Origin: a virus
IMG/VR virus record: IMGVR_UViG_3300033183_000299
Location: 107,508 to 171,507 of that record
DNA: 64,000 nt
Strand: one strand, 5' to 3'
Part shown: positions 15,074 to 27,787 of the stretch, piece after piece
Layout of the letters: every line of letters begins with the position of its first letter
Position numbering within the stretch: position 1 is the stretch's first letter
Program-made: the position numbers and the translations under genes
Notes under the pieces: generated by a model
The model's database searches: none
What the model was told of the DNA's origin: nothing
What the model saw: the letters and a program-made list of their open reading frames with translations, nothing else

Positions 15074-17683
15074 TTACAATTTGACTTGTGCATACCCGTC
15101 AGTCTTATCGATCTCAATTGTTGTATCAACAATGTCCTTGAGACTTTCTAAATGAGTGATCAGCAATACTGTTTTGAATTGAGTTTTGATCATCTGAAGT
15201 AATTGAACAAAACCTTCCATATGCTCAGCATCTAATGCCGTTGCCGGTTCATCAAGAATGAATAGTTGGCTCTTTGGTAGAGACGATACTGAGATTAGGG
15301 CAAGTCGAACAGCCATAGAAGCAATTGTCTTTTCAGCACCAGACCCCATGGACAATGGTCGAGCATCATATTTCGGATGCTTTAGGTAGACCTCCAACTT
15401 ATCTCCATCCTCAGCAAAGAACACTTGAAAATCAACGATGGAAGAAAGAACTTTTTGGATCTCATCGTTGATGATTGGAAGCATTGATTTGATAACTTCG
15501 TATGAAATTCCATTCGCATGAGTTGCTTTTACAAAGATGTCATAAGCAATGTAATCACGCTCAGCTTCTTTGATTTGTTCAATTCTCTCATTGGCTTCCT
15601 GAATCATACGTTCAGCAGAACCTTTTTCAGACATGTACCCAAGAACCTTTTCATCGCATCGTTTGATATCGGCAATCTTCAAATCAACAGTCTTATTGAT
15701 TGCTAATAAGTCTCTCTTAAGGGAGGAAAGGTTTTCATACGCTTCAATGTTTTCGTTGTAGTATGCGATATCTGAATTGAGCTTCTCGATACGATGCTCA
15801 GCTAAAGATGCTTTACCTTCAAAGTTTTCCCACTGAATACTCATGTTTCTGATTTCATCAGTTAGTTTCTTATGAGATGTTTTGCTATCTGAATATCGAT
15901 TGATAATGTTGTTCAGCGCTTCTTCATCAAACAAAGAACCTTTCATTTTAAGATCCAAAAGCTTTGACTTGATGTCTTCAATCTCAATATTCATTGGAGG
16001 TACTTTGCTTTTTGCTGCTTCCGCTTCCTTTACAAACTCATTATCGCAACAATATTTACAATCCGGATCGTACTCATGACCTTTGAGCATATCTATCTTT
16101 GATTGTAAGTTATCTCTCTTACGAGTTTTGCTTTGGAGGTCTTTGGTCAACTCTTTTAATTCTGACTTGATGGTCTCTAGGTCTTTGAGTTCAAGTTCAG
16201 CCTTATTGGAAGCTTCAAGCATGCTTGGAAGAGAAGAGGTCAAATCTTCAATCTGAGAGCGTTTTGACTTAATCTTGGTAGACAATGCCTCCATTTGATT
16301 GCGAGAACTTGAGAGTGTCTTTTCGGCCTCTTTAAGAAGTGATTTGACTGAATCAATATCTATCTCTTTTTGGGATGCTGCCTCTACTTGTTCTTTGATC
16401 ATCGTTTGTTCTTGTTTAAGGGTATCTAAACGGATATTGTGTCGATCGCATAAGTCTTTTTGAACCTCGATATCTTCAAGGATCTCGGACAACTCCTCTT
16501 TCGCTCGAGACAATTTCTTATCCCAATCAGCAGATTGAAGATGTTTGATTACGCCACGCATTTCGGCAGAGTCTTGCTTTGCTAGTTTGTGCATTTGATC
16601 AAATATTTGAAGATCCAAAAACTTAGCCAGAATTTCTTTGCGTTTCGTTGATCCTTCGCTGATAAATCCAAAAGAATCGTTCTGTGCTGCTAGAGAGGTC
16701 ATCATAAAGTCCTCTAATGACCCAAAAGTATCCTTGATGTTATCATCAGTTTTGTTTCGGGTATCTCCATTTTTGGACTCCGGAGTTGTTCCAAAGTTAT
16801 ACTTTGTAAAGTCTAGCTCTGTTTTAGCCGAGATGACTTCTCGACCTTTAGACTTTCCGGTTGTTTTTTCGAGGCTTCGAGCAATTTTATAAACATCATC
16901 GCCGACAGCGATCTCGAGCTTACAAGAAGCTCTTTCTTGGTTTTGATTGATGATATGGACATTCTTTCTTTCTCCCTTAGATGTAGTATTAAATAGGCCA
17001 AACAAAGCAGCGTCAATAATTGAAGACTTGCCTGAATAGTTTTTACCGAAGATGCCCACAAGCCCATTTAACTTGCTGAAATCTAGAGTATTGCCTTTTC
17101 CGTAATTAAATAGGTAGTCCCACTTCATTTTCTTAATATCCCAAACAACATTTCGAGATACGCCGTTCGATGAATCAACTTTCTTTAAATACTCTTGCGA
17201 AAGCTCAACTACGCGATCTTTGACTGAGTCTTCAACTTCATTTGTCTCCATAAATTCACGAAGAAACTTTTCTTGATTCTTTGGGTCTCGCATGTTGATT
17301 GCCTTACCGCCATTGGCTGAAGACACCGAAGCTGATGACTGAGAATTGTTTACAAAAGAAACCGAATGAGTCGACCACTTAACTTGGGCGTAATCGCAGG
17401 CTCTCTTTAATTTTGCTGTGGGTAAGTTATAATTACAAACCAATCGTAAACGAGCATTCTTGGGTACATCTACATTGGGTAGTGTACCATCTTGATTTAG
17501 ATGCACTGTAATAAATGGTCGAGGAGATTGGAATAATCTTTTCTCGATTGAATGCTTGTCTTTGGAGTGAATATTCCAAATCAAATAACCTTTTAGGCGA
17601 GACTCTCCAAAGTTCTGTTGCACAGTGCTGCCTGCATAAATGCAGATGCACTTCTTTTTTCTTAATTTAATTTTTTTAGCCAT
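15074..17683 (-). CDS. SbcD/Mre11 C-terminal fragment fused to SbcC/Rad50 (gp46-like) ATPase
   Basis: Begins MAKKIKLRKKKCICIYAGSTVQQNFGE (the YxGS strand of SbcD). GKNYSGKSS Walker A, CKYC zinc hook, SMGSGAEK signature, FILDEP Walker B. Confidence 0.9.
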   Translation of the reverse strand: MAKKIKLRKKKCICIYAGSTVQQNFGESRLKGYLIWNIHSKDKHSIEKRLFQSPRPFITVHLNQDGTLPNVDVPKNARLRLVCNYNLPTAKLKRACDYAQVKWSTHSVSFVNNSQSSASVSSANGGKAINMRDPKNQEKFLREFMETNEVEDSVKDRVVELSQEYLKKVDSSNGVSRNVVWDIKKMKWDYLFNYGKGNTLDFSKLNGLVGIFGKNYSGKSSIIDAALFGLFNTTSKGERKNVHIINQNQERASCKLEIAVGDDVYKIARSLEKTTGKSKGREVISAKTELDFTKYNFGTTPESKNGDTRNKTDDNIKDTFGSLEDFMMTSLAAQNDSFGFISEGSTKRKEILAKFLDLQIFDQMHKLAKQDSAEMRGVIKHLQSADWDKKLSRAKEELSEILEDIEVQKDLCDRHNIRLDTLKQEQTMIKEQVEAASQKEIDIDSVKSLLKEAEKTLSSSRNQMEALSTKIKSKRSQIEDLTSSLPSMLEASNKAELELKDLETIKSELKELTKDLQSKTRKRDNLQSKIDMLKGHEYDPDCKYCCDNEFVKEAEAAKSKVPPMNIEIEDIKSKLLDLKMKGSLFDEEALNNIINRYSDSKTSHKKLTDEIRNMSIQWENFEGKASLAEHRIEKLNSDIAYYNENIEAYENLSSLKRDLLAINKTVDLKIADIKRCDEKVLGYMSEKGSAERMIQEANERIEQIKEAERDYIAYDIFVKATHANGISYEVIKSMLPIINDEIQKVLSSIVDFQVFFAEDGDKLEVYLKHPKYDARPLSMGSGAEKTIASMAVRLALISVSSLPKSQLFILDEPATALDAEHMEGFVQLLQMIKTQFKTVLLITHLESLKDIVDTTIEIDKTDGYAQVKL

Positions 17684-18471
17684 TTGTCCTCCATTTTATT
17701 TGACTTTTTTAAATTTTCTTTCCATGGAATGAATTGCAAGTTTGATATATCACCTATGATATCTGGGGATATATCGTTTAACCATCCATAGGAAATTGGT
17801 ATGATATGGTCCAAATGATAACAATCTTCATTCAAATCAGATCTCCCCCTTTTATCATAATGAGGCAAGGTAGATAAATCTTGAGATTCTGTTATTCTCT
17901 TTACTTGTTTATAATATCTTTCTTTATTGCTCAATTTGGCCTCATATTCTTCAAATGGAATTCCAACCATCGTCTCTATTAATGTTTTGCGTCGGCGCTC
18001 TATGACATCTGCATCAATCATAGAGGCTGCGAGTTCAAGCGAGCCGGAGCCATACATCTCTATGCATGTTTGTTCACATTTTTCTCGGCATTCTTTATTG
18101 GACCAATTGTGTCGAGAGCCATATTTTTCTAAATAAGTCTGTTTTCTCCTTTGAATAGATTCTGGTGACCATCCAAAATTATAGCCTGTTTCTTCAAAAA
18201 ATTTTTCTCTTGCTTCTTCTCGAGAAGACAAAACTTTGTCGACATAGTCTTCGTCTTTCCAAAATTCAATCATTGCTTTAGATTTCAAGAGTTTTGATTT
18301 CTCAGACTGCTCTTTCCCATACATATGGTTTCCTTCACCTTTCATTATTTTCTTTTTATGTTCATCGACGCAGTTTCTAGAGCAATAGTGTCTTTTCGAT
18401 CTCTTGAGTCTAGATGTTGCTTTTTCAAATTCAACACAGCAATTATCGCACTTTATTTTAGTCATTTTCAT
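17662..18471 (-). mobile_element. Free-standing HNH homing endonuclease inserted in sbcD
   Basis: N-terminal CxxC...YCSRNC, NUMOD3-like GEGNHMYGK, KQTYLEKYG repeats, C-terminal HLDHIIP...NLQFIPWKENLKK. Has its own SD and late motif. Confidence 0.85.
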
Positions 18472-23002: not shown

Positions 23003-23536
23003 TTAAGTAGTTTCTCCCCATTTCTTCTTTAGGTATTCCTCTATCTTTTCTTCAACCAAATATTTGTAAGAGCTATGGACGTACAAATGATGAGTCGGAC
23101 ACAATGGTACAAGATTCTTAGGATCATCATTATCGTGATTTTCATCATAATGATGGACGGCGACAATCTTATCTTCTCCGCACACTACGCACACTTTTTC
23201 GTGATGAGCCCAGCAGATGCTTCTGTAAGAATTGCCGGTGCCATAATGGTTTGGCATTATCTCTTTTATTCCCCCAATTTTTTGAGCAGCGTCTTTGCAT
23301 GATCTAGAACAGAAAAACAAGCCAGATTTCGATTGTTTCTTTTTGCTGTTGTTTTTGTAAAATTCCTTCCCGCATTTTGCGCACTCAACATTTGGTTTCT
23401 TAGGCTTTATTTTTGATACCCTATGTGCTGCTGAACATTTTCTTGTACAAAATTTTCCATTTCCCCTCTTCACTTCTCTCAATAATGCTTCAAACTCTTT
23501 GCCGCATTGTAGACATGGTTTTTTAATTGTAGTCAT
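23003..23536 (-). mobile_element. Free-standing HNH endonuclease downstream of the tRNA
   Basis: Two CxxC...FC.R.C zinc modules and C-terminal CVVCG...VHH.DENH.N....NLVPLCPTHH. Own late motif at 23558-23565. Confidence 0.85.
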
Positions 23537-23734: not shown

Positions 23735-24568
23735 TTAAATAGTGTGCGTCAATACATTTGGTATTTCTTGCTTTTGATTTCTCAAGATTTCTCGATAACG
23801 CGAGATGACCTTAAAATAAAGCCCTGAATTCGTCTGAAGAAGCCAAGAATGGAGCTGGGCGAACGTTTGAGTTTGGCTATATGTTACCATTCCGTAGTGC
23901 TCAGAAAGCAGCTGTAGGGCATCCTCGGGGCTCGTTATTGTCCATTCTGATGTATTTTTCTCTTTGATACCCGAGAAATGATTAAATGTGTAGCCAATCT
24001 CCGAGAATAAAGCCACAAGAAACTGTGTTCTGTGGAGTCCTTTTAGGCCATGTTCGCCATGAGAATAGTAGGACCAAGTAAGCCAATCGATGTCTCCAAC
24101 CATCCAATCGATCTGTACATGATCCCCTGTTGGGCCATTCTCGTCATGTTGCGGAAAGCATGTAAAGATGTTTCCAGCAGTTACTTGACCTCCGACATCA
24201 ATGTTATTCTCTGCAATTTTTTCTGAGATTAGAGTTAGTAAAGCACGCATCTTGCTCATTTGGTAAGTTGCTGTTCGTGCTCTCTTGTGGATTTTTGTGT
24301 AAAGATTATTCCAATCGTCATAGTCAACACCCCACTTCTCCAATTCATCCCCAGTAAATGAGCGAACGATGTGAGTCCAGTCGATTGCTAGATCCAAGTC
24401 TCCCGATGTTTCTTTCTTGCCCGCTGATCCAACTGGCTTGAAGAAAGTTAAAGAGTGAGCCTTCATCGGGAAGATTTCTCCGAGAGCTTTTTTGTAAGCC
24501 TCGATTGTTGGTCTCACTCTGTCTTTTGAAATTGTTGTTGCTTTGTCTTTAAAGATGTTACCACCCAT
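23735..24568 (-). CDS. Pol-beta-superfamily nucleotidyltransferase
   Basis: GSAGKKETSGDLDLAI (GS...DxD) and third Asp in VQIDWM. Start ATG 24568 with GGAGGA SD. Confidence 0.75.
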   Translation of the reverse strand: MGGNIFKDKATTISKDRVRPTIEAYKKALGEIFPMKAHSLTFFKPVGSAGKKETSGDLDLAIDWTHIVRSFTGDELEKWGVDYDDWNNLYTKIHKRARTATYQMSKMRALLTLISEKIAENNIDVGGQVTAGNIFTCFPQHDENGPTGDHVQIDWMVGDIDWLTWSYYSHGEHGLKGLHRTQFLVALFSEIGYTFNHFSGIKEKNTSEWTITSPEDALQLLSEHYGMVTYSQTQTFAQLHSWLLQTNSGLYFKVISRYREILRNQKQEIPNVLTHTI

Positions 24569-24590
24569 AGTGTCCTCCATTGTTTTAAAC

Positions 24591-24619
24591 AATATAACAC
24601 GTTTGGATTGACTTGTCAA
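24591..24619 (-). promoter_or_regulatory. Early sigma70-type promoter
   Basis: TTGACA-17 nt-TATATT with CGTGT. Confidence 0.75.
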
Positions 24620-25551
24620 ATATTTTCTAAAAGTTTTTCAAAGAAATACATTTCATTCTTAATTGGTCTGGCTTCTTCAAGTCTTTCCTTAAACTCTTCG
24701 CTACCCATTTCTCCAACATCTGCGTCATCAATTGGGATCTTGAAAACTTCGAGATCGTATTTTAAAAGCGACTTGATGATCCATTCGGCTTTCTTCTCGG
24801 CATCTTTGTCGAGAGCCATGTAGACCGGTGTGTCGTGGATCGCGATTGCTTGGAACAAACGTGACTTTTCTCGAAGCGTTGAGCCAAGGATTGGGATTGC
24901 GTTCTCTCCAGCTGCGATTGCGTCAAAGACACCTTCGACAAGAATGATTGGTTCGTCCCAATCAATGTTTAGTTCGTTAAAAACGATATCACGATCTGTT
25001 GGAGGGTTGAGGTACCTACGCTGATGCCCAACATAGCTGCGAGCAATGAAATAGTTACAGTCTCCATCAGAGTCAATGGACGGGATAATGATTCGTCCTC
25101 CATAGCGGCCCTCCTTGCAATAGCCAATTTTCCATTTTAAAATCTCTCGACGACCAATACCACGAGACGATAGATAACGGAAAGCGTCCGTTGAGTCCAT
25201 CGGCAGGTCTTTGTTGCATAAAGAGATAAATTCGTCGGGAAGATCGATCTTTTGTTTCTCTTCCACATTGTTTAGTTCTTTAAAAAGATCCTCGAACTCA
25301 TTAAGGTCAAGGCGACCTTGTAGTTCAAGATACTTTTGTCGTTGCTGGTATGTTCCGAACTTTCTTACAATTCGGTAAATGTTTTTATGTCGTGAATCGC
25401 AGTGCCAGCAATGTGCGCCTTTCTTAAAGTTTACTGCGAATTTTTTATTTCTGTGATTGCAATAAGGGCAAGTGAAATAATATTCATCTTGCCCTTGTCT
25501 TTTTGGATAACCCAAAATTTGAGTTAGAATTTTTAATTTATCTGCTTCCAT
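24616..25551 (-). CDS. DNA primase (zinc finger + TOPRIM)
   Basis: CPYC...HCWHC zinc finger, YL..RGI, RIIIP, LVEGVFDAI, ALDKDA. Confidence 0.9.
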   Translation of the reverse strand: MEADKLKILTQILGYPKRQGQDEYYFTCPYCNHRNKKFAVNFKKGAHCWHCDSRHKNIYRIVRKFGTYQQRQKYLELQGRLDLNEFEDLFKELNNVEEKQKIDLPDEFISLCNKDLPMDSTDAFRYLSSRGIGRREILKWKIGYCKEGRYGGRIIIPSIDSDGDCNYFIARSYVGHQRRYLNPPTDRDIVFNELNIDWDEPIILVEGVFDAIAAGENAIPILGSTLREKSRLFQAIAIHDTPVYMALDKDAEKKAEWIIKSLLKYDLEVFKIPIDDADVGEMGSEEFKERLEEARPIKNEMYFFEKLLENI

Positions 25552-25569
25552 AGTTGTCCTCCTTTAAAT

Positions 25570-25598
25570 AACTTAACACGAAAAGAAAGACTTGTCAA
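25570..25598 (-). promoter_or_regulatory. Early promoter supplied by the inserted cassette
   Basis: TTGACA-17 nt-TAAGTT with CGTGT. Confidence 0.7.
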
Positions 25599-25605
25599 GA
25601 AGAAA

Positions 25606-26169
25606 TTAATAATTAAATCTTTCCGCTCTTTCAATCGCCCTTGTAATCGTTGTTGTGTGAACTCCAATTTCTTTCGCAATTGATCCTTTTGTTTCTCCGG
25701 AAAGCCATCTTTCTCTGAACGATGCTTCTTGTTCGTCCGTAAATCTTTTATTTGATTTACTTATCTTTCTTCGCCACTCTTCACTCACAGGCTTTCCGTA
25801 ATGTGGGTGGTTTTCATCGGATAGTTTTTCAGATAGAAGTTGCTTTACTTCTTCTGTGTGGTTCAGTCCAGCCATAGGAGAGCCGGCTACCCTGCTAATG
25901 TTGTAGATTTCTTGACCGCCGCCAAAGGCTTCGTCAAGATATTCTTGCTCTTTCGCAAGCAAATTTGCTCTTCTTACTTCTTCAATCAATACGAACTCAA
26001 ATTGATCTTCGCCGTGCTTGTCGTAAGAATTTTGAAGGTGGAAGTTGGTGTGAGTTCCGCTTCTCAAGTTTGACTTGTGATGTCTCCACCTTCTCTTGAT
26101 ATTGTTTGAAGATCCAATGTAAAATTTTCCATTGACCTTATTTGTTATTTTGTAAATTCCCGAGTTCAT
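25606..26169 (-). mobile_element. GIY-YIG homing endonuclease (NUMOD3 + HTH)
   Basis: SGIYKITNKVNGKFYIGSS, KRR...H, EQEYLD, YN, HTEEVK/NHPHYGK NUMOD3-like, C-terminal HTH (IAKEIGVHTTTITR). Confidence 0.9.
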
Positions 26170-26305
26170 TTTGACTATCCTCCGCTAACTTGGAGTTAAT
26201 CAAATTCTCAACAAACTTTCCAACCTTCAAACCCTTTTCTTTACAATAGTTCTTTAACTTCTCGTGGGTCTCTTCGTTGATTTTGAGATTTTTTAAATTA
26301 GACAT
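26138..26305 (-). CDS. Ribbon-helix-helix-like DNA-binding protein (55 aa, not in ORF track)
   Basis: MSNLKNLKINEETHEKLKNYCKEKGLKVGKFVENLINSKLAEDSQNELGNLQNNK. AAGGAG SD, late motif at 26323-26330. Confidence 0.7.
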   Translation of the reverse strand: MSNLKNLKINEETHEKLKNYCKEKGLKVGKFVENLINSKLAEDSQNELGNLQNNK

Positions 26306-26321
26306 GATAACTCCTTTTACT

Positions 26322-26483
26322 CTAAATAGTCTCTAAAAGATAAAAAAGGATAAAAAAAGATAAGTTCACCGACATCTTCTTTTTGTGGTGATTGCAATAA
26401 GGGCAATGATACAAATGCTCATCGCCCTTTTGATAATAAGACCCAAGTATTTGGGTTACAATTTTTCTTTTGTCCTCGATCAT
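26322..26483 (-). pseudogene. Truncated original 5' end of the primase gene
   Basis: MIEDKRKIVTQILGSYYQKGDEHLYHCPYCNHHKKKMSVN aligns with primase residues 1-41, then runs into AT-rich insert sequence. Confidence 0.85.
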
Positions 26484-26500
26484 AATGTCCTCCTGTTTAT

Positions 26501-26529
26501 AAGATAACACGTCACAGAAGGTTTGTCAA
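26501..26529 (-). promoter_or_regulatory. Early promoter of the original primase gene
   Basis: TTGACA-17 nt-TATCTT with CGTGT. Confidence 0.75.
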
Positions 26530-26539
26530 GTAAAAAGTT

Positions 26540-26923
26540 TTATTTGTTTATCTCCATCATAATCTTCTCGGCTATATCTGAGACCTGAGCAGCTGGGATT
26601 CCGAGTGTGTTAGTTAAATAACCTGTAAGATCGAATCCTTCATCTTGTAGATTTTTAGCGATCTCCTTTGCTGCGAATCCGGCCCGTGAAATGGACGATA
26701 TCCCAGCGTCATCTCTTAAAATTTTGGCAATTTCCATTTTCATTTGCATGTCTGGAGTGGAAAAATCTGGTGTTTCTCGTCTATCGGATGGGTGAAGATT
26801 CGGAGAGGTGTAGTCCCTTGGGTTTATATCATATTTACTTCTAAAGCGACGGTCGCCTTCGTTTATTACAGCTTCAAGCTCTTCTTTGATAATTCTTTTT
26901 AGGGCTTCTTTTGTGAGCTTCAT
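26540..26923 (-). CDS. Hypothetical protein with MKLTKEALKRIIKEELE leader
   Basis: Shared leader, late motif at 26957-26964. Confidence 0.65.
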   Translation of the reverse strand: MKLTKEALKRIIKEELEAVINEGDRRFRSKYDINPRDYTSPNLHPSDRRETPDFSTPDMQMKMEIAKILRDDAGISSISRAGFAAKEIAKNLQDEGFDLTGYLTNTLGIPAAQVSDIAEKIMMEINK

Positions 26924-26948
26924 TTTGATGTCTCCGCTAAATGAATGA

Positions 26949-27467
26949 TTATGCTTTAAATAGTTGCATAAATTGTTCTTCGCTTACACCATCTGGGAGA
27001 AACTTAGCGATCGACTCTCCGTTTCGTAATGCTTCTCGGAACTGCGTGGCGGATAGTTCATCCTTCATTTCAAACATCGGAACTTCGATTGTGTTGAAGC
27101 GAGTTGTCTTAAAGTATTTCATGAAACGCTCTTGATAGACGGCATCCTTTGAAGAGCACCCAAGACCCATCGGCTCATTCACTCTTGTCTCGGCATAGTC
27201 ATAGCAATCGCTCAAAGGATTGGTGTAAGGGCCTTTCTTGCCTTCTCTAAGGGTTGCCCTGCGGTATGTTAGTTTTGGGTGCTCAAGCAAGCCGTAGAGG
27301 TCAAGGATCGCCTCCGTTGTCTCGAGACAGAATTCGTCTCGCTCTTTTGATCCAATGTAAAGACGAACTTCTTTAACGTCGGGATTGTCGAGATAAAACT
27401 TAATGTAGTCATAGTGACCTTTGTGAGGTGGCTTAAAGCCGCCTGGGATTAAAACTGTGTATTGCAT
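26949..27467 (-). CDS. HIGH-family (cytidyltransferase-like) nucleotidyltransferase
   Basis: PGGFKPPHKGH and SATQFREAL motifs. Confidence 0.8.
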   Translation of the reverse strand: MQYTVLIPGGFKPPHKGHYDYIKFYLDNPDVKEVRLYIGSKERDEFCLETTEAILDLYGLLEHPKLTYRRATLREGKKGPYTNPLSDCYDYAETRVNEPMGLGCSSKDAVYQERFMKYFKTTRFNTIEVPMFEMKDELSATQFREALRNGESIAKFLPDGVSEEQFMQLFKA

Positions 27468-27529: not shown

Positions 27530-27787
27530 TTAATAATCACCTAAGGCATCAGCCAGGGCTTCTGCTTGGTTATAATCTCTGACTTCTTGTTCGCGAGTCT
27601 TCGGTGTTCCATCGGGTTTAGTTCTAGATGCAAGTTCTCTAATTTTAGGATGTGGATGATCGAGTAGTCGCTTTCTCTTTTCTAATGCCGCTTGTATGTC
27701 TGGGCTGATATAAGTTTTAGAGCCTTCTAAGACAGCTTCAAGCTCTTCTTTAATGATTCTTTTCAAAGATTGTTTTGTAAGTTTCAT
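27530..27787 (-). CDS. Hypothetical protein with MKLTKQSLKRIIKEELE leader
   Basis: Shared leader, late motif ACTAGTTA at 27810-27817. Confidence 0.65.
   Translation of the reverse strand: MKLTKQSLKRIIKEELEAVLEGSKTYISPDIQAALEKRKRLLDHPHPKIRELASRTKPDGTPKTREQEVRDYNQAEALADALGDY

What the first reader, a model, noticed from the sequence alone, without database searches (positions are those of the whole stretch)
25429..26483. GIY-YIG + RHH cassette that truncates primase and supplies a replacement promoter and N-terminus
Seen: order is early promoter (26501-26529), 40 codons of primase, AT-rich junction with a late promoter, 55-aa RHH-like ORF, GIY-YIG gene, second early promoter of the same class (25570-25598), then a full primase. 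Its first ~41 residues are a diverged duplicate of the stub (KI.TQILG...CPYCNH..KK..VN; both copies share GATTGCAATAAGGGCAA on the + strand). Inference: the element inserts inside the zinc-finger coding sequence and rescues the gene with a recoded 5' end that is probably immune to its own cleavage. The RHH protein may autoregulate the nuclease. This is a second splicing-free way to occupy an essential gene.
Basis: partly seen in the sequence, partly recalled or inferred. Interest (0 to 1): 0.8.

Follow-up and report, generated by a model that had tools for sequence, protein, structure and literature searches.

The report
Homing nuclease cassette re-heading phage primase
A selfish DNA-cutting gene sits inside the start of this marine phage's primase gene and keeps the gene working without splicing, by bringing its own promoter and a foreign first ~50 codons and leaving the original start as a dead stub; the trick is already known from yeast and fungal mitochondria, but here every stage of the element's life cycle can be seen in related phages.

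Summary
On the minus strand the order is: early promoter, 41-codon primase stub, AT-rich leader with a late-promoter-like motif, 55-aa RHH-like ORF, GIY-YIG/NUMOD3 nuclease, second early promoter, complete primase.

Seventeen cassette-free relatives have primase N-termini 90-97.5% identical to the stub and only 50-55% identical to the replacement. The same cassette occurs in seven other contigs. RHH is 93-100% and the nuclease 70-99% identical, although the primase bodies fall to 62%.

Two matched empty/occupied pairs bound the converted tract. They place the inferred cut in native primase nt 129-144 (codons 44-48).

Decay stages also exist: contigs with the nuclease deleted but the stub kept, and nuclease-free recombinants that keep the foreign N-terminus.

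The mechanism is gene-end-replacement homing. The stub serves as the left homology arm and the foreign 5' end as the presumably resistant allele. This mirrors yeast WHO elements and fungal mitochondrial mORFs, so it is a new variant of a known kind, not a new principle. The RHH's regulatory role is untested.

This scan has noted the same design before on other DNA (phages, archaea) and elsewhere in this genome.

The parts
26501..26529 (-). Native early promoter of primase (TTGACA-17-TATCTT with extended -10 TG). It now drives the stub and can read into the cassette.
   Evidence: Near-identical to the promoter of cassette-free relatives.
26322..26483 (-). Primase stub ORF. Nt 1-122 (26483-26362) are native primase sequence holding the first Cys pair only. 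A 12-codon out-of-context tail and a stop follow.
26362..26366 (-). AACTT microhomology at the window's left junction. An L137-like ancestor has this pentamer both in the stub and just before the cassette leader.
26306..26361 (-). Cassette leader. It holds three tandem 10-nt T-rich repeats (26335-26364), the late-promoter-like CTATTTA (26323-26329) and the SD of the RHH gene. It is the sharp left edge of the block shared by all cassette copies.
26138..26305 (-). 55-aa RHH-like (Arc/ParG-like) protein. It is 93-100% conserved in all cassette copies and overlaps the nuclease ORF by 32 nt.
26157..26214 (-). Predicted RNA hairpin that pairs the nuclease SD (GGAGG) just before its AUG, inside the RHH coding sequence.
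   Evidence: z -3.05, 1 of 200 shuffles as good; conserved, but only one compensatory change
25606..26169 (-). Free-standing GIY-YIG homing endonuclease: GIY-YIG domain, NUMOD3 and a C-terminal stretch that looks like a helix-turn-helix (by eye; no profile match).
25570..25598 (-). Cassette-borne early promoter (TTGACA-17-TAAGTT with TG) that now drives the functional primase.
25402..25563 (-). Foreign SD and primase 5' module (codons 1 to about 50), a discrete swapped unit. It is about 98% identical to L123 in a different context, yet diverged from close relative L137, which is about 99% identical on both sides.
24616..25551 (-). Complete, functional-looking DnaG-type primase with both Cys pairs and a TOPRIM region.

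Best explanation
This is a free-standing GIY-YIG homing endonuclease element of the gene-end-replacement type.

The unit consists of the leader, the RHH gene, the nuclease gene, an early promoter with SD, and a heterologous primase 5' end of about 50 codons. The displaced native promoter and 41-47 native codons (the stub) lie on its left.

Proposed steps:
1. During co-infection the nuclease cuts nuclease-free primase alleles at about nt 129-144, between the two Cys pairs of the zinc ribbon (inferred).
2. The right end of the break recombines in the primase body.
3. The left end pairs with the near-identical stub of the donor.
4. Repair therefore copies in the whole cassette. The recipient's own 5' end becomes the new stub.
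5. Primase is then expressed from the imported promoter with the imported N-terminus. That allele differs at many positions and by a one-codon deletion at the cut region, and is presumably not cleaved (inferred).

The founding insertion was probably a one-sided, microhomology-joined repair (inferred). Later the cassette decays or is lost by recombination between the two diverged repeats. This leaves nuclease-free alleles that keep the foreign N-terminus and are presumably resistant (the products are observed).

The RHH most likely represses the cassette's own late promoter, or otherwise limits nuclease expression. Nuclease translation may be coupled to RHH translation through the overlap and the SD hairpin (speculative).
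For: SHOWN

Stub is native, replacement is foreign:
- 17 cassette-free loci match the stub at 90-97.5% and the replacement at 50-55%.
- For four other carrier or nuclease-deleted contigs (L006, L020, L127, L129), a cassette-free primase with a 92-99% identical body has the carrier's stub sequence at 98-100%. For the window the best native-type match is P0011 (94% body, 98% to the stub).

The cassette is mobile:
- RHH is 93-100% and the nuclease 86-99% identical across contigs whose primases are only 62-85% identical.
- Sliding identity shows a sharp left edge at about 26358-26363 and a gradual decay into the primase 5' end.

Matched empty and occupied sites:
- L134 versus L020: the stub copy is 100% identical to the empty allele from the promoter to nt 128. 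The functional copy is diverged to about nt 180, then 100% identical.
- L136 versus L129: the stub is identical to nt 128, and identity of the functional copy resumes at native nt 145.
- Under double-strand-break repair the converted tract must contain the cut, hence nt 129-144.

Differences and self-targets:
- Replacement alleles differ from native ones across about nt 109-144 and lack one codon there.
- No native-type target-like 35-mer remains anywhere in this genome.

Junctions:
- The older junction, shared by L006, L084, L127, L129 and L137, joins native codon 47 to the late-promoter leader of an MKLTK-family gene at an ACTAT microhomology.
- The window's junction equals an L137-like arrangement minus the segment between two AACTT repeats.

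Decay and loss:
- L127 and L128 keep the stub, the leader and the last ~8 nuclease codons, but have lost the RHH gene and the rest of the nuclease.
- L123/L124, L125 and L003 are nuclease-free, with crossovers at the SD, at the shared CPYCNH block and inside the promoter respectively.

Other support:
- A 47%-identical nuclease sits directly upstream of a distant primase whose N-terminus resembles the replacement type (61% against 42% for the stub).
- No intron or other Rfam family is present.

ESTABLISHED KNOWLEDGE
- Intronless homing, co-conversion and one-sided illegitimate break repair in T4 (PMC2988022).
- The WHO model, in which the displaced gene fragment is the homology arm and the imported gene end confers resistance (PMC7282813).
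Against: - No cleavage data exist. The target, the cut window and the immunity of the replacement allele all rest on applying the break-repair model to natural variants.
- Close relative L137 carries a cassette variant next to a third N-terminal type (KNVAKCW). That type resembles an allele, L134, that was invaded elsewhere. Which allele is immune to which nuclease variant is therefore unclear.
- The founding-event inference rests on 5-nt microhomologies, which can arise by chance. All junctions may descend from one event, so they are not independent pointers to the cut site.
- In the window the stub lacks nt 123-141, so its value as a homology arm is slightly reduced.
- RHH assignment is moderate: Pfam scores are below the gathering threshold, AF2 pLDDT is 71 and Foldseek E is 4.7.
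- The RHH leader shows no significant RNA structure.
Confidence: 0.8

Rival explanations
1. The composite is a selected, self-contained design. On this view the promoter and immune N-terminus were recruited and kept because they let the nuclease occupy an essential gene, and the RHH is a dedicated regulator. It would not be an accidental scar of one-sided repair that merely happens to propagate.
For: - The same unit persists across primase backgrounds down to 62% identity, with the RHH 100% conserved.
- The stub stays open and near-identical to local native alleles.
- WHO elements are described as exactly such a functional unit (PMC7282813).
Against: - Variable extra genes lie between the stub and the leader.
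- The element is readily lost or decayed.
- Stub intactness is already explained if each homing event renews it.
- Nothing distinguishes selection on the design from hitch-hiking.
Confidence: 0.3
2. An in-situ tandem duplication of the promoter and 5' end diverged in place, and an endonuclease gene later landed between the copies. The nuclease played no part in creating the duplication.
For: The two copies are direct repeats 931 nt apart.
Against: - The stub is 95-100% identical to native alleles of relatives, while the other copy belongs to a distinct allele class found in other phages and contexts.
- Empty-site relatives are identical to the stub copy right up to nt 128.
- In-place divergence cannot produce that pattern.
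Confidence: 0.03
3. The stub is a functional small protein, for example a half zinc-ribbon peptide that modulates primase or helicase, and is kept for that reason.
For: It keeps a strong promoter, an SD and an open frame in all carriers.
Against: - Its C-terminal tails differ between carriers and are read from unrelated sequence.
- It has only one of the two Cys pairs.
- Its length varies from 41 to 47 native codons.
- Renewal at each homing event explains why it is intact.
Confidence: 0.05
4. The arrangement is an assembly chimera of two co-occurring primase alleles.
For: None, beyond the metagenomic origin of the record.
Against: - The same architecture is present in eight contigs from independent samples and assemblers. 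Junctions are conserved and the stubs are lineage-specific.
Confidence: 0.01

Closest known systems
WHO elements at FBA1 in Torulaspora and Lachancea yeasts (Coughlan et al. 2020, PMC7282813)
   Same: - The homing element needs no splicing.
- It replaces one end of an essential gene with a diverged, resistance-conferring copy at each integration.
- The displaced gene fragment stays next to the nuclease gene and serves as the homology arm.
- The replaced gene end evolves as a mosaic, discordant with the rest of the gene.
- Nuclease genes decay afterwards.
   Different: - Here the 5' end is replaced, so the element must also carry a promoter and SD.
- The nuclease is GIY-YIG, not an intein-like LAGLIDADG fused to a zinc finger.
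- The host is a phage, so transfer happens in co-infection rather than meiosis.
- An RHH gene accompanies the nuclease.
- Cleavage is not demonstrated here.
Mobile endonuclease ORFs (mORFs) of fungal mitochondria that create gene hybrids: Allomyces macrogynus atp6; Glomus atp6, atp9, cox2, nad3 (PMC3630166). Also the partial cob and atp6 duplications flanked by endonuclease ORFs in PMC6279837.
   Same: - An endonuclease ORF is inserted together with a foreign copy of the gene terminus.
- The native terminus is left behind and matches the close relative.
- The inserted terminus is diverged and was acquired horizontally.
   Different: - Those cases involve C-termini, often fused in frame with the endonuclease ORF, in organelle genomes.
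- Here the element is a separate cistron at the N-terminus with its own promoters, in a phage.
Intronless homing by free-standing Seg and Mob endonucleases of T4-like phages, and one-sided illegitimate break repair (review PMC2988022, citing Belle 2002, Liu 2003, Parker 1999)
   Same: - A free-standing GIY-YIG nuclease lies next to its target gene.
- Flanking sequence is co-converted.
- A promoter for the downstream essential gene travels with the nuclease gene.
- The nuclease gene has a late promoter.
- Microhomology junctions form when homology exists on one side only.
   Different: - The T4 examples in the review sit between genes or split genes into two working halves.
- None of them is described as leaving a promoter-bearing 5' stub beside an imported replacement N-terminus.
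T4 MobA with the gene 60 bypass cassette (bioRxiv 10.1101/2022.08.31.505936)
   Same: A phage homing endonuclease occupies a conserved essential gene without an intron or intein. It carries sequence that both restores expression and alters the target.
   Different: Expression there is rescued by translational bypass and gene splitting, not by duplicating and replacing the gene's start.

Membership tests
Free-standing GIY-YIG homing endonuclease (Seg-like) | GIY-YIG catalytic domain plus a DNA-binding extension | tested here: met
   PF01541 2.9e-13 and NUMOD3 3.7e-10; PHROG 314 homing endonuclease 2.3e-34.
Free-standing GIY-YIG homing endonuclease (Seg-like) | Not inside an intron or intein; has its own translation signals | tested here: met
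   Separate ORF with a GGAGGA SD. No Rfam family in 24400-27000. The primase frame is not interrupted.
Free-standing GIY-YIG homing endonuclease (Seg-like) | Presence/absence polymorphism at one site among close relatives, with the nuclease more conserved than its flanks | tested here: met
Free-standing GIY-YIG homing endonuclease (Seg-like) | Site-specific cleavage of the nuclease-free allele, and biased inheritance | not testable with these tools
   Only inferred from conversion-tract boundaries.
Gene-end-replacement homing element (WHO / mORF type) | Displaced native gene end beside the nuclease gene, matching the alleles of element-free relatives | tested here: met
Gene-end-replacement homing element (WHO / mORF type) | Imported, diverged gene end fused to the resident gene body, with a history discordant from the body | tested here: met
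Gene-end-replacement homing element (WHO / mORF type) | The imported end confers resistance to the element's own nuclease | not testable with these tools
   Sequence differences and a one-codon deletion lie at the inferred cut region. No native-type site remains in the genome.
Ribbon-helix-helix (Arc/MetJ/CopG/ParG) DNA-binding protein | Profile match and strand-helix-helix fold | tested here: inconclusive
   - PHROG Arc-like repressor 7.6e-6 and 3.3e-4.
- Pfam RepB-RCR_reg 20.9 bits against a cut-off of 21, and ParG 18.2 against 21.4.
- PDB ParG E 0.28.
- The AF2 monomer (pLDDT 71) has an extended N-terminus followed by two helices.
- The top two Foldseek matches are Arc and ParG, but at E 4.7.
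Ribbon-helix-helix (Arc/MetJ/CopG/ParG) DNA-binding protein | Dimerises and binds repeated operator sites | not tested
   Three 10-nt tandem repeats lie upstream, but no binding data exist.
DnaG-type primase | Zinc ribbon with four ligands plus a TOPRIM catalytic core | tested here: met
   - PHROG 47 DNA primase 2.8e-41.
- Pfam Zn_ribbon_DnaG and DNAG_N score below their cut-offs.
- Both Cys pairs are present in the functional copy; only the first is in the stub.
Group I intron or intein-borne homing endonuclease | Nuclease embedded in a self-splicing RNA or protein element | tested here: not met
   No Rfam hit. The stub and the functional gene overlap in content rather than being two halves.

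The most novel reading that the evidence does not exclude
The primase 5' end of this phage group is a battleground between nuclease variants. Each variant would be linked to its own resistant N-terminal allele, as with WHO elements. The evidence is the window's nuclease with the 'GAHCW' allele, against L137's nuclease with a swapped catalytic core and the 'KNVAKCW' allele. Successive super-invasions would replace both the allele and the rival nuclease core. The RHH would be a dedicated timer that couples nuclease translation to its own. That would make this a phage gene-drive system with allele-specific, regulated cleavage.
Probability: 0.25. Interest if true: 0.7.

Novelty: new variant of a known kind. 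Interest (0 to 1): 0.5.

Why it matters
Homing endonucleases are usually said to need an intron or intein to live inside essential genes. This locus shows a splicing-free alternative, proven in yeast and seen in fungal mitochondria, operating in a marine phage at the 5' end of a replication gene, with a promoter carried along.

The natural series makes the locus unusually testable. It includes empty sites, occupied sites, a nuclease-deleted stage and nuclease-free recombinants that keep the foreign N-terminus. From sequence alone it narrows the predicted cut to a 16-nt stretch.

The locus also explains why the first ~50 codons of this primase are hypervariable and phylogenetically discordant in metagenomes. 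That matters for anyone using primase as a marker or annotating such genomes.

Tried and rejected
- A nucleotide search of cultured phages found nothing. The closest named primase is 33% identical, in Flavobacterium phage immuto, so neither host nor taxon could be assigned.
- I tested for an SD-sequestering hairpin in the RHH leader, as for I-TevI. It is no better than shuffled sequence (z +0.9), so I rejected it.
- The hairpin at the nuclease SD is significant on one sequence. The cassette copies are too similar to test covariation, so I report it only as a possibility.
- The RHH homologue search found only six clusters, all at least 89% identical. No deep alignment could be built, and the fold prediction stayed at moderate confidence.
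- I first read the different left junctions as independent insertions that cluster at the cut site. After L137 the window's junction, and possibly L020's, look like deletion derivatives of one founding junction, so I dropped that argument.
- I first classed the 'KNVAKCW' alleles as simply native. L137 shows that one of them sits behind a cassette, so the three-way allele picture is unresolved.
Full report
**What is there.** The window is part of a 183,930-bp uncultured virus record judged complete. All genes around the finding are on the minus strand. Reading 5' to 3' on that strand:
- an early promoter, 26529-26501;
- an SD and ATG at 26483, opening 41 codons of primase that end in unrelated sequence and a stop at 26322;
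- a 56-nt AT-rich leader;
- a 55-aa ORF, 26305-26138;
- a 187-aa ORF, 26169-25606, overlapping the previous one by 32 nt;
- a second early promoter, 25598-25570;
- a complete 311-aa primase, 25551-24616.

**Domain assignments.** The 187-aa protein is a GIY-YIG plus NUMOD3 endonuclease (PHROG homing endonuclease 2.3e-34). The 311-aa protein is a DnaG-type primase (PHROG 47, 2.8e-41). The 55-aa protein matches Arc-like repressor families (7.6e-6) and falls just below Pfam thresholds for RepB and ParG. A moderate-confidence model shows an extended N-terminus followed by two helices. Its two best structural matches are Arc and ParG, but these are not significant.

**The duplication and the promoters.** The stub and the primase N-terminus are 23/42 identical (E 4e-13), and the repeat includes the promoter and SD. 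Both promoters belong to a real class. TTGACA-N14-TGnTAnnnT occurs 9 times in the window against 0.09 expected, and 43 times in the genome by a slightly looser pattern (N13-16), nearly all before an SD and ATG. The leader carries CTATTTA. Of the 49 genomic copies of that motif, 27 lie just upstream of genes, including large structural-looking genes and other endonuclease genes. Control heptamers give 2/33 and 2/38.

**Which copy is native.** Primase relatives are abundant.
- Seventeen cassette-free loci with 79-85% identical primases have N-termini 90-97.5% identical to the stub and 50-55% identical to the replacement.
- For each of four other cassette-bearing or nuclease-deleted contigs (L006, L020, L127, L129), a cassette-free primase with a 92-99% identical body carries an N-terminus 98-100% identical to that contig's own stub.
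- For the window itself the closest bodies (96-97%, P0002/P0003/P0005) belong to cassette carriers of the L137 type. Its best native-type match, P0011, has a 94% body and 98% identity to the stub.

The stub is therefore the resident gene's original start, and the functional gene's first ~50 codons are imported.

**The cassette is mobile.** The same leader, RHH, nuclease, promoter and replacement N-terminus are present in seven other contigs: L006/L083, L020/L086, L084, L085, L129, L130 and L137. RHH is 93-100% and the nuclease 86-99% identical (70% in the L137 variant), while the primases are only 62-85% identical to the window's (89% in L137). Sliding identity shows a sharp shared left edge at about 26358-26363 and a gradual decay rightwards into the primase 5' end. 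That is the signature of a conversion tract. These independent assemblies also exclude a chimeric assembly.

**Where it cuts (inferred).** Two empty/occupied pairs are nearly identical outside the element.
- L134 (empty) versus L020: the stub copy is 100% identical to the empty allele from the promoter to primase nt 128. The functional copy is diverged to about nt 180, then 100% identical.
- L136 (empty) versus L129: the stub is identical to nt 128, and identity of the functional copy resumes at TGCTGG, native nt 145.

Under the double-strand-break repair model of homing (PMC2988022), the converted tract must contain the break. The cut therefore lies in native nt 129-144 (codons 44-48), just 5' of the second Cys pair. 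Replacement alleles differ at many positions across nt ~109-144 and lack one codon there. No native-type site survives anywhere in the window's genome. Immunity of the replacement allele is plausible but untested.

**How the arrangement arose and spreads (inferred).**
- In L006, L084, L127, L129 and L137 the stub runs to codon 47. There it joins the leader of an 'MKLTK'-family gene at an ACTAT microhomology with that gene's CTATTTA motif. A variable MKLTK gene then precedes the cassette leader.
- This looks like the 'one-sided' illegitimate repair at microhomologies shown experimentally for T4 intron homing when only one flank is homologous (Parker et al. 1999, as summarised in PMC2988022).
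- The window's own junction is exactly what a deletion between two AACTT pentamers of an L137-like arrangement would give. L137 is a close 180-kb relative.
- After the founding event, the stub provides near-perfect homology for the left end of the break. Each stub matches the local native allele up to nt 128 and then carries the donor's last few stub bases. That is what is expected if the stub is the left homology arm and is renewed at every homing event.
- This is the mirror image of the model proposed and partly proven for yeast WHO elements. There the displaced FBA1 fragment is the recombination arm and the imported 3' end confers resistance (PMC7282813). Fungal mitochondrial mORFs carry foreign C-termini in the same way (PMC3630166; PMC6279837).

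**Decay and loss.**
- L127 and L128 retain the stub, the MKLTK gene, the leader and the last ~8 nuclease codons. They have lost the RHH gene and the rest of the nuclease through a short-repeat deletion.
- Many primases carry the replacement-type N-terminus without any cassette. Crossovers fall at the SD (L123/L124), at the 19-nt identical CPYCNH block (L125/P0015) or inside the promoter (L003).
- These are the products expected from recombination between the two diverged direct repeats, or from repair that used the donor's functional copy on both sides.
- By a simple N-terminal score, about 21 of the 120 closest primase clusters are replacement-type, several are mosaics, and most of the rest resemble the stub (native-like). 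That last group includes the 'KNVAKCW' type, one of which sits behind a cassette in L137.

**Regulation (speculative).**
- The native early promoter can read through the stub into the cassette, since no convincing terminator intervenes. The cassette also has its own late-type motif.
- Three 10-nt tandem repeats just upstream of that motif are candidate RHH operators. For comparison, I-TevI represses its own late promoter (PMC2988022).
- The nuclease SD lies in a hairpin inside the RHH ORF (z -3.05), which would couple nuclease translation to RHH translation. The copies are too similar to test covariation.
- A comparable hairpin at the RHH start is not supported.

**Verdict.** The mechanism is not new in principle, given WHO elements, mORFs and T4 intronless homing. 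What is new is the 5'-end version with a carried promoter, in a phage, with a GIY-YIG nuclease and an RHH companion. I found no phage report of this arrangement in the searchable literature, but the library is incomplete. This scan has flagged the same design repeatedly in other phages and archaea, and twice more in this genome. I verified one of those here: the RNR 3' end is duplicated around an HNH gene.

Noticed in passing
L137:3374-3946 versus window 25606-26169: A close 180-kb relative carries the same cassette, but nuclease residues ~22-105 (the catalytic core) are replaced by a ~45%-identical version. Residues 1-21 and 106-190, the RHH and the promoter are near-identical. It sits next to a third primase N-terminal type (KNVAKCWTCDSRH). 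This suggests competing nuclease variants linked to different alleles.
   Followed up: partly
window 26540-26923 and 27530-27787; also outside the window at genome 54165, 114539, 59110 and 68149: A family of otherwise unrelated genes shares a conserved leader (CTATTTA ... cattcatttagcggaga) and a first ~20 codons (MKLTKEALKRIIKEELE...). In relatives, different family members occupy the same slot between the stub and the cassette. The shared heads may therefore act as recombination linkers that shuffle the variable bodies.
   Followed up: partly
genome 59664-61484 (about 46 kb before the window start): Mirror case in the same genome. The last ~45 codons of the ribonucleotide reductase gene occur twice, on either side of a 185-aa HNH endonuclease gene.
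   Followed up: partly
window 23003-23536: A 177-aa HNH endonuclease (PHROG 1271, 5.8e-22) lies two genes downstream of primase. Several other endonuclease genes in the genome are preceded by the CTATTTA motif, for example a LAGLIDADG-like 314-aa ORF at genome 47612-48556 and a 269-aa ORF at window ~17662-18471.
   Followed up: no
L087:423-1944: In a distant relative, a 47%-identical GIY-YIG nuclease lies directly between the RuvC-like gene and a 53%-identical primase, overlapping its start. It has no RHH and no stub. That primase's N-terminus resembles the replacement type (61%) more than the native type (42%). It is a possible ancestral, stub-less arrangement.
   Followed up: partly
L137:4936-6263: In the close relative, genes for a histidine-kinase-like ATPase and a response-regulator receiver follow primase directly. 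In the window a 294-aa protein of no known family occupies that position, and its homologue lies further downstream in L137.
   Followed up: no
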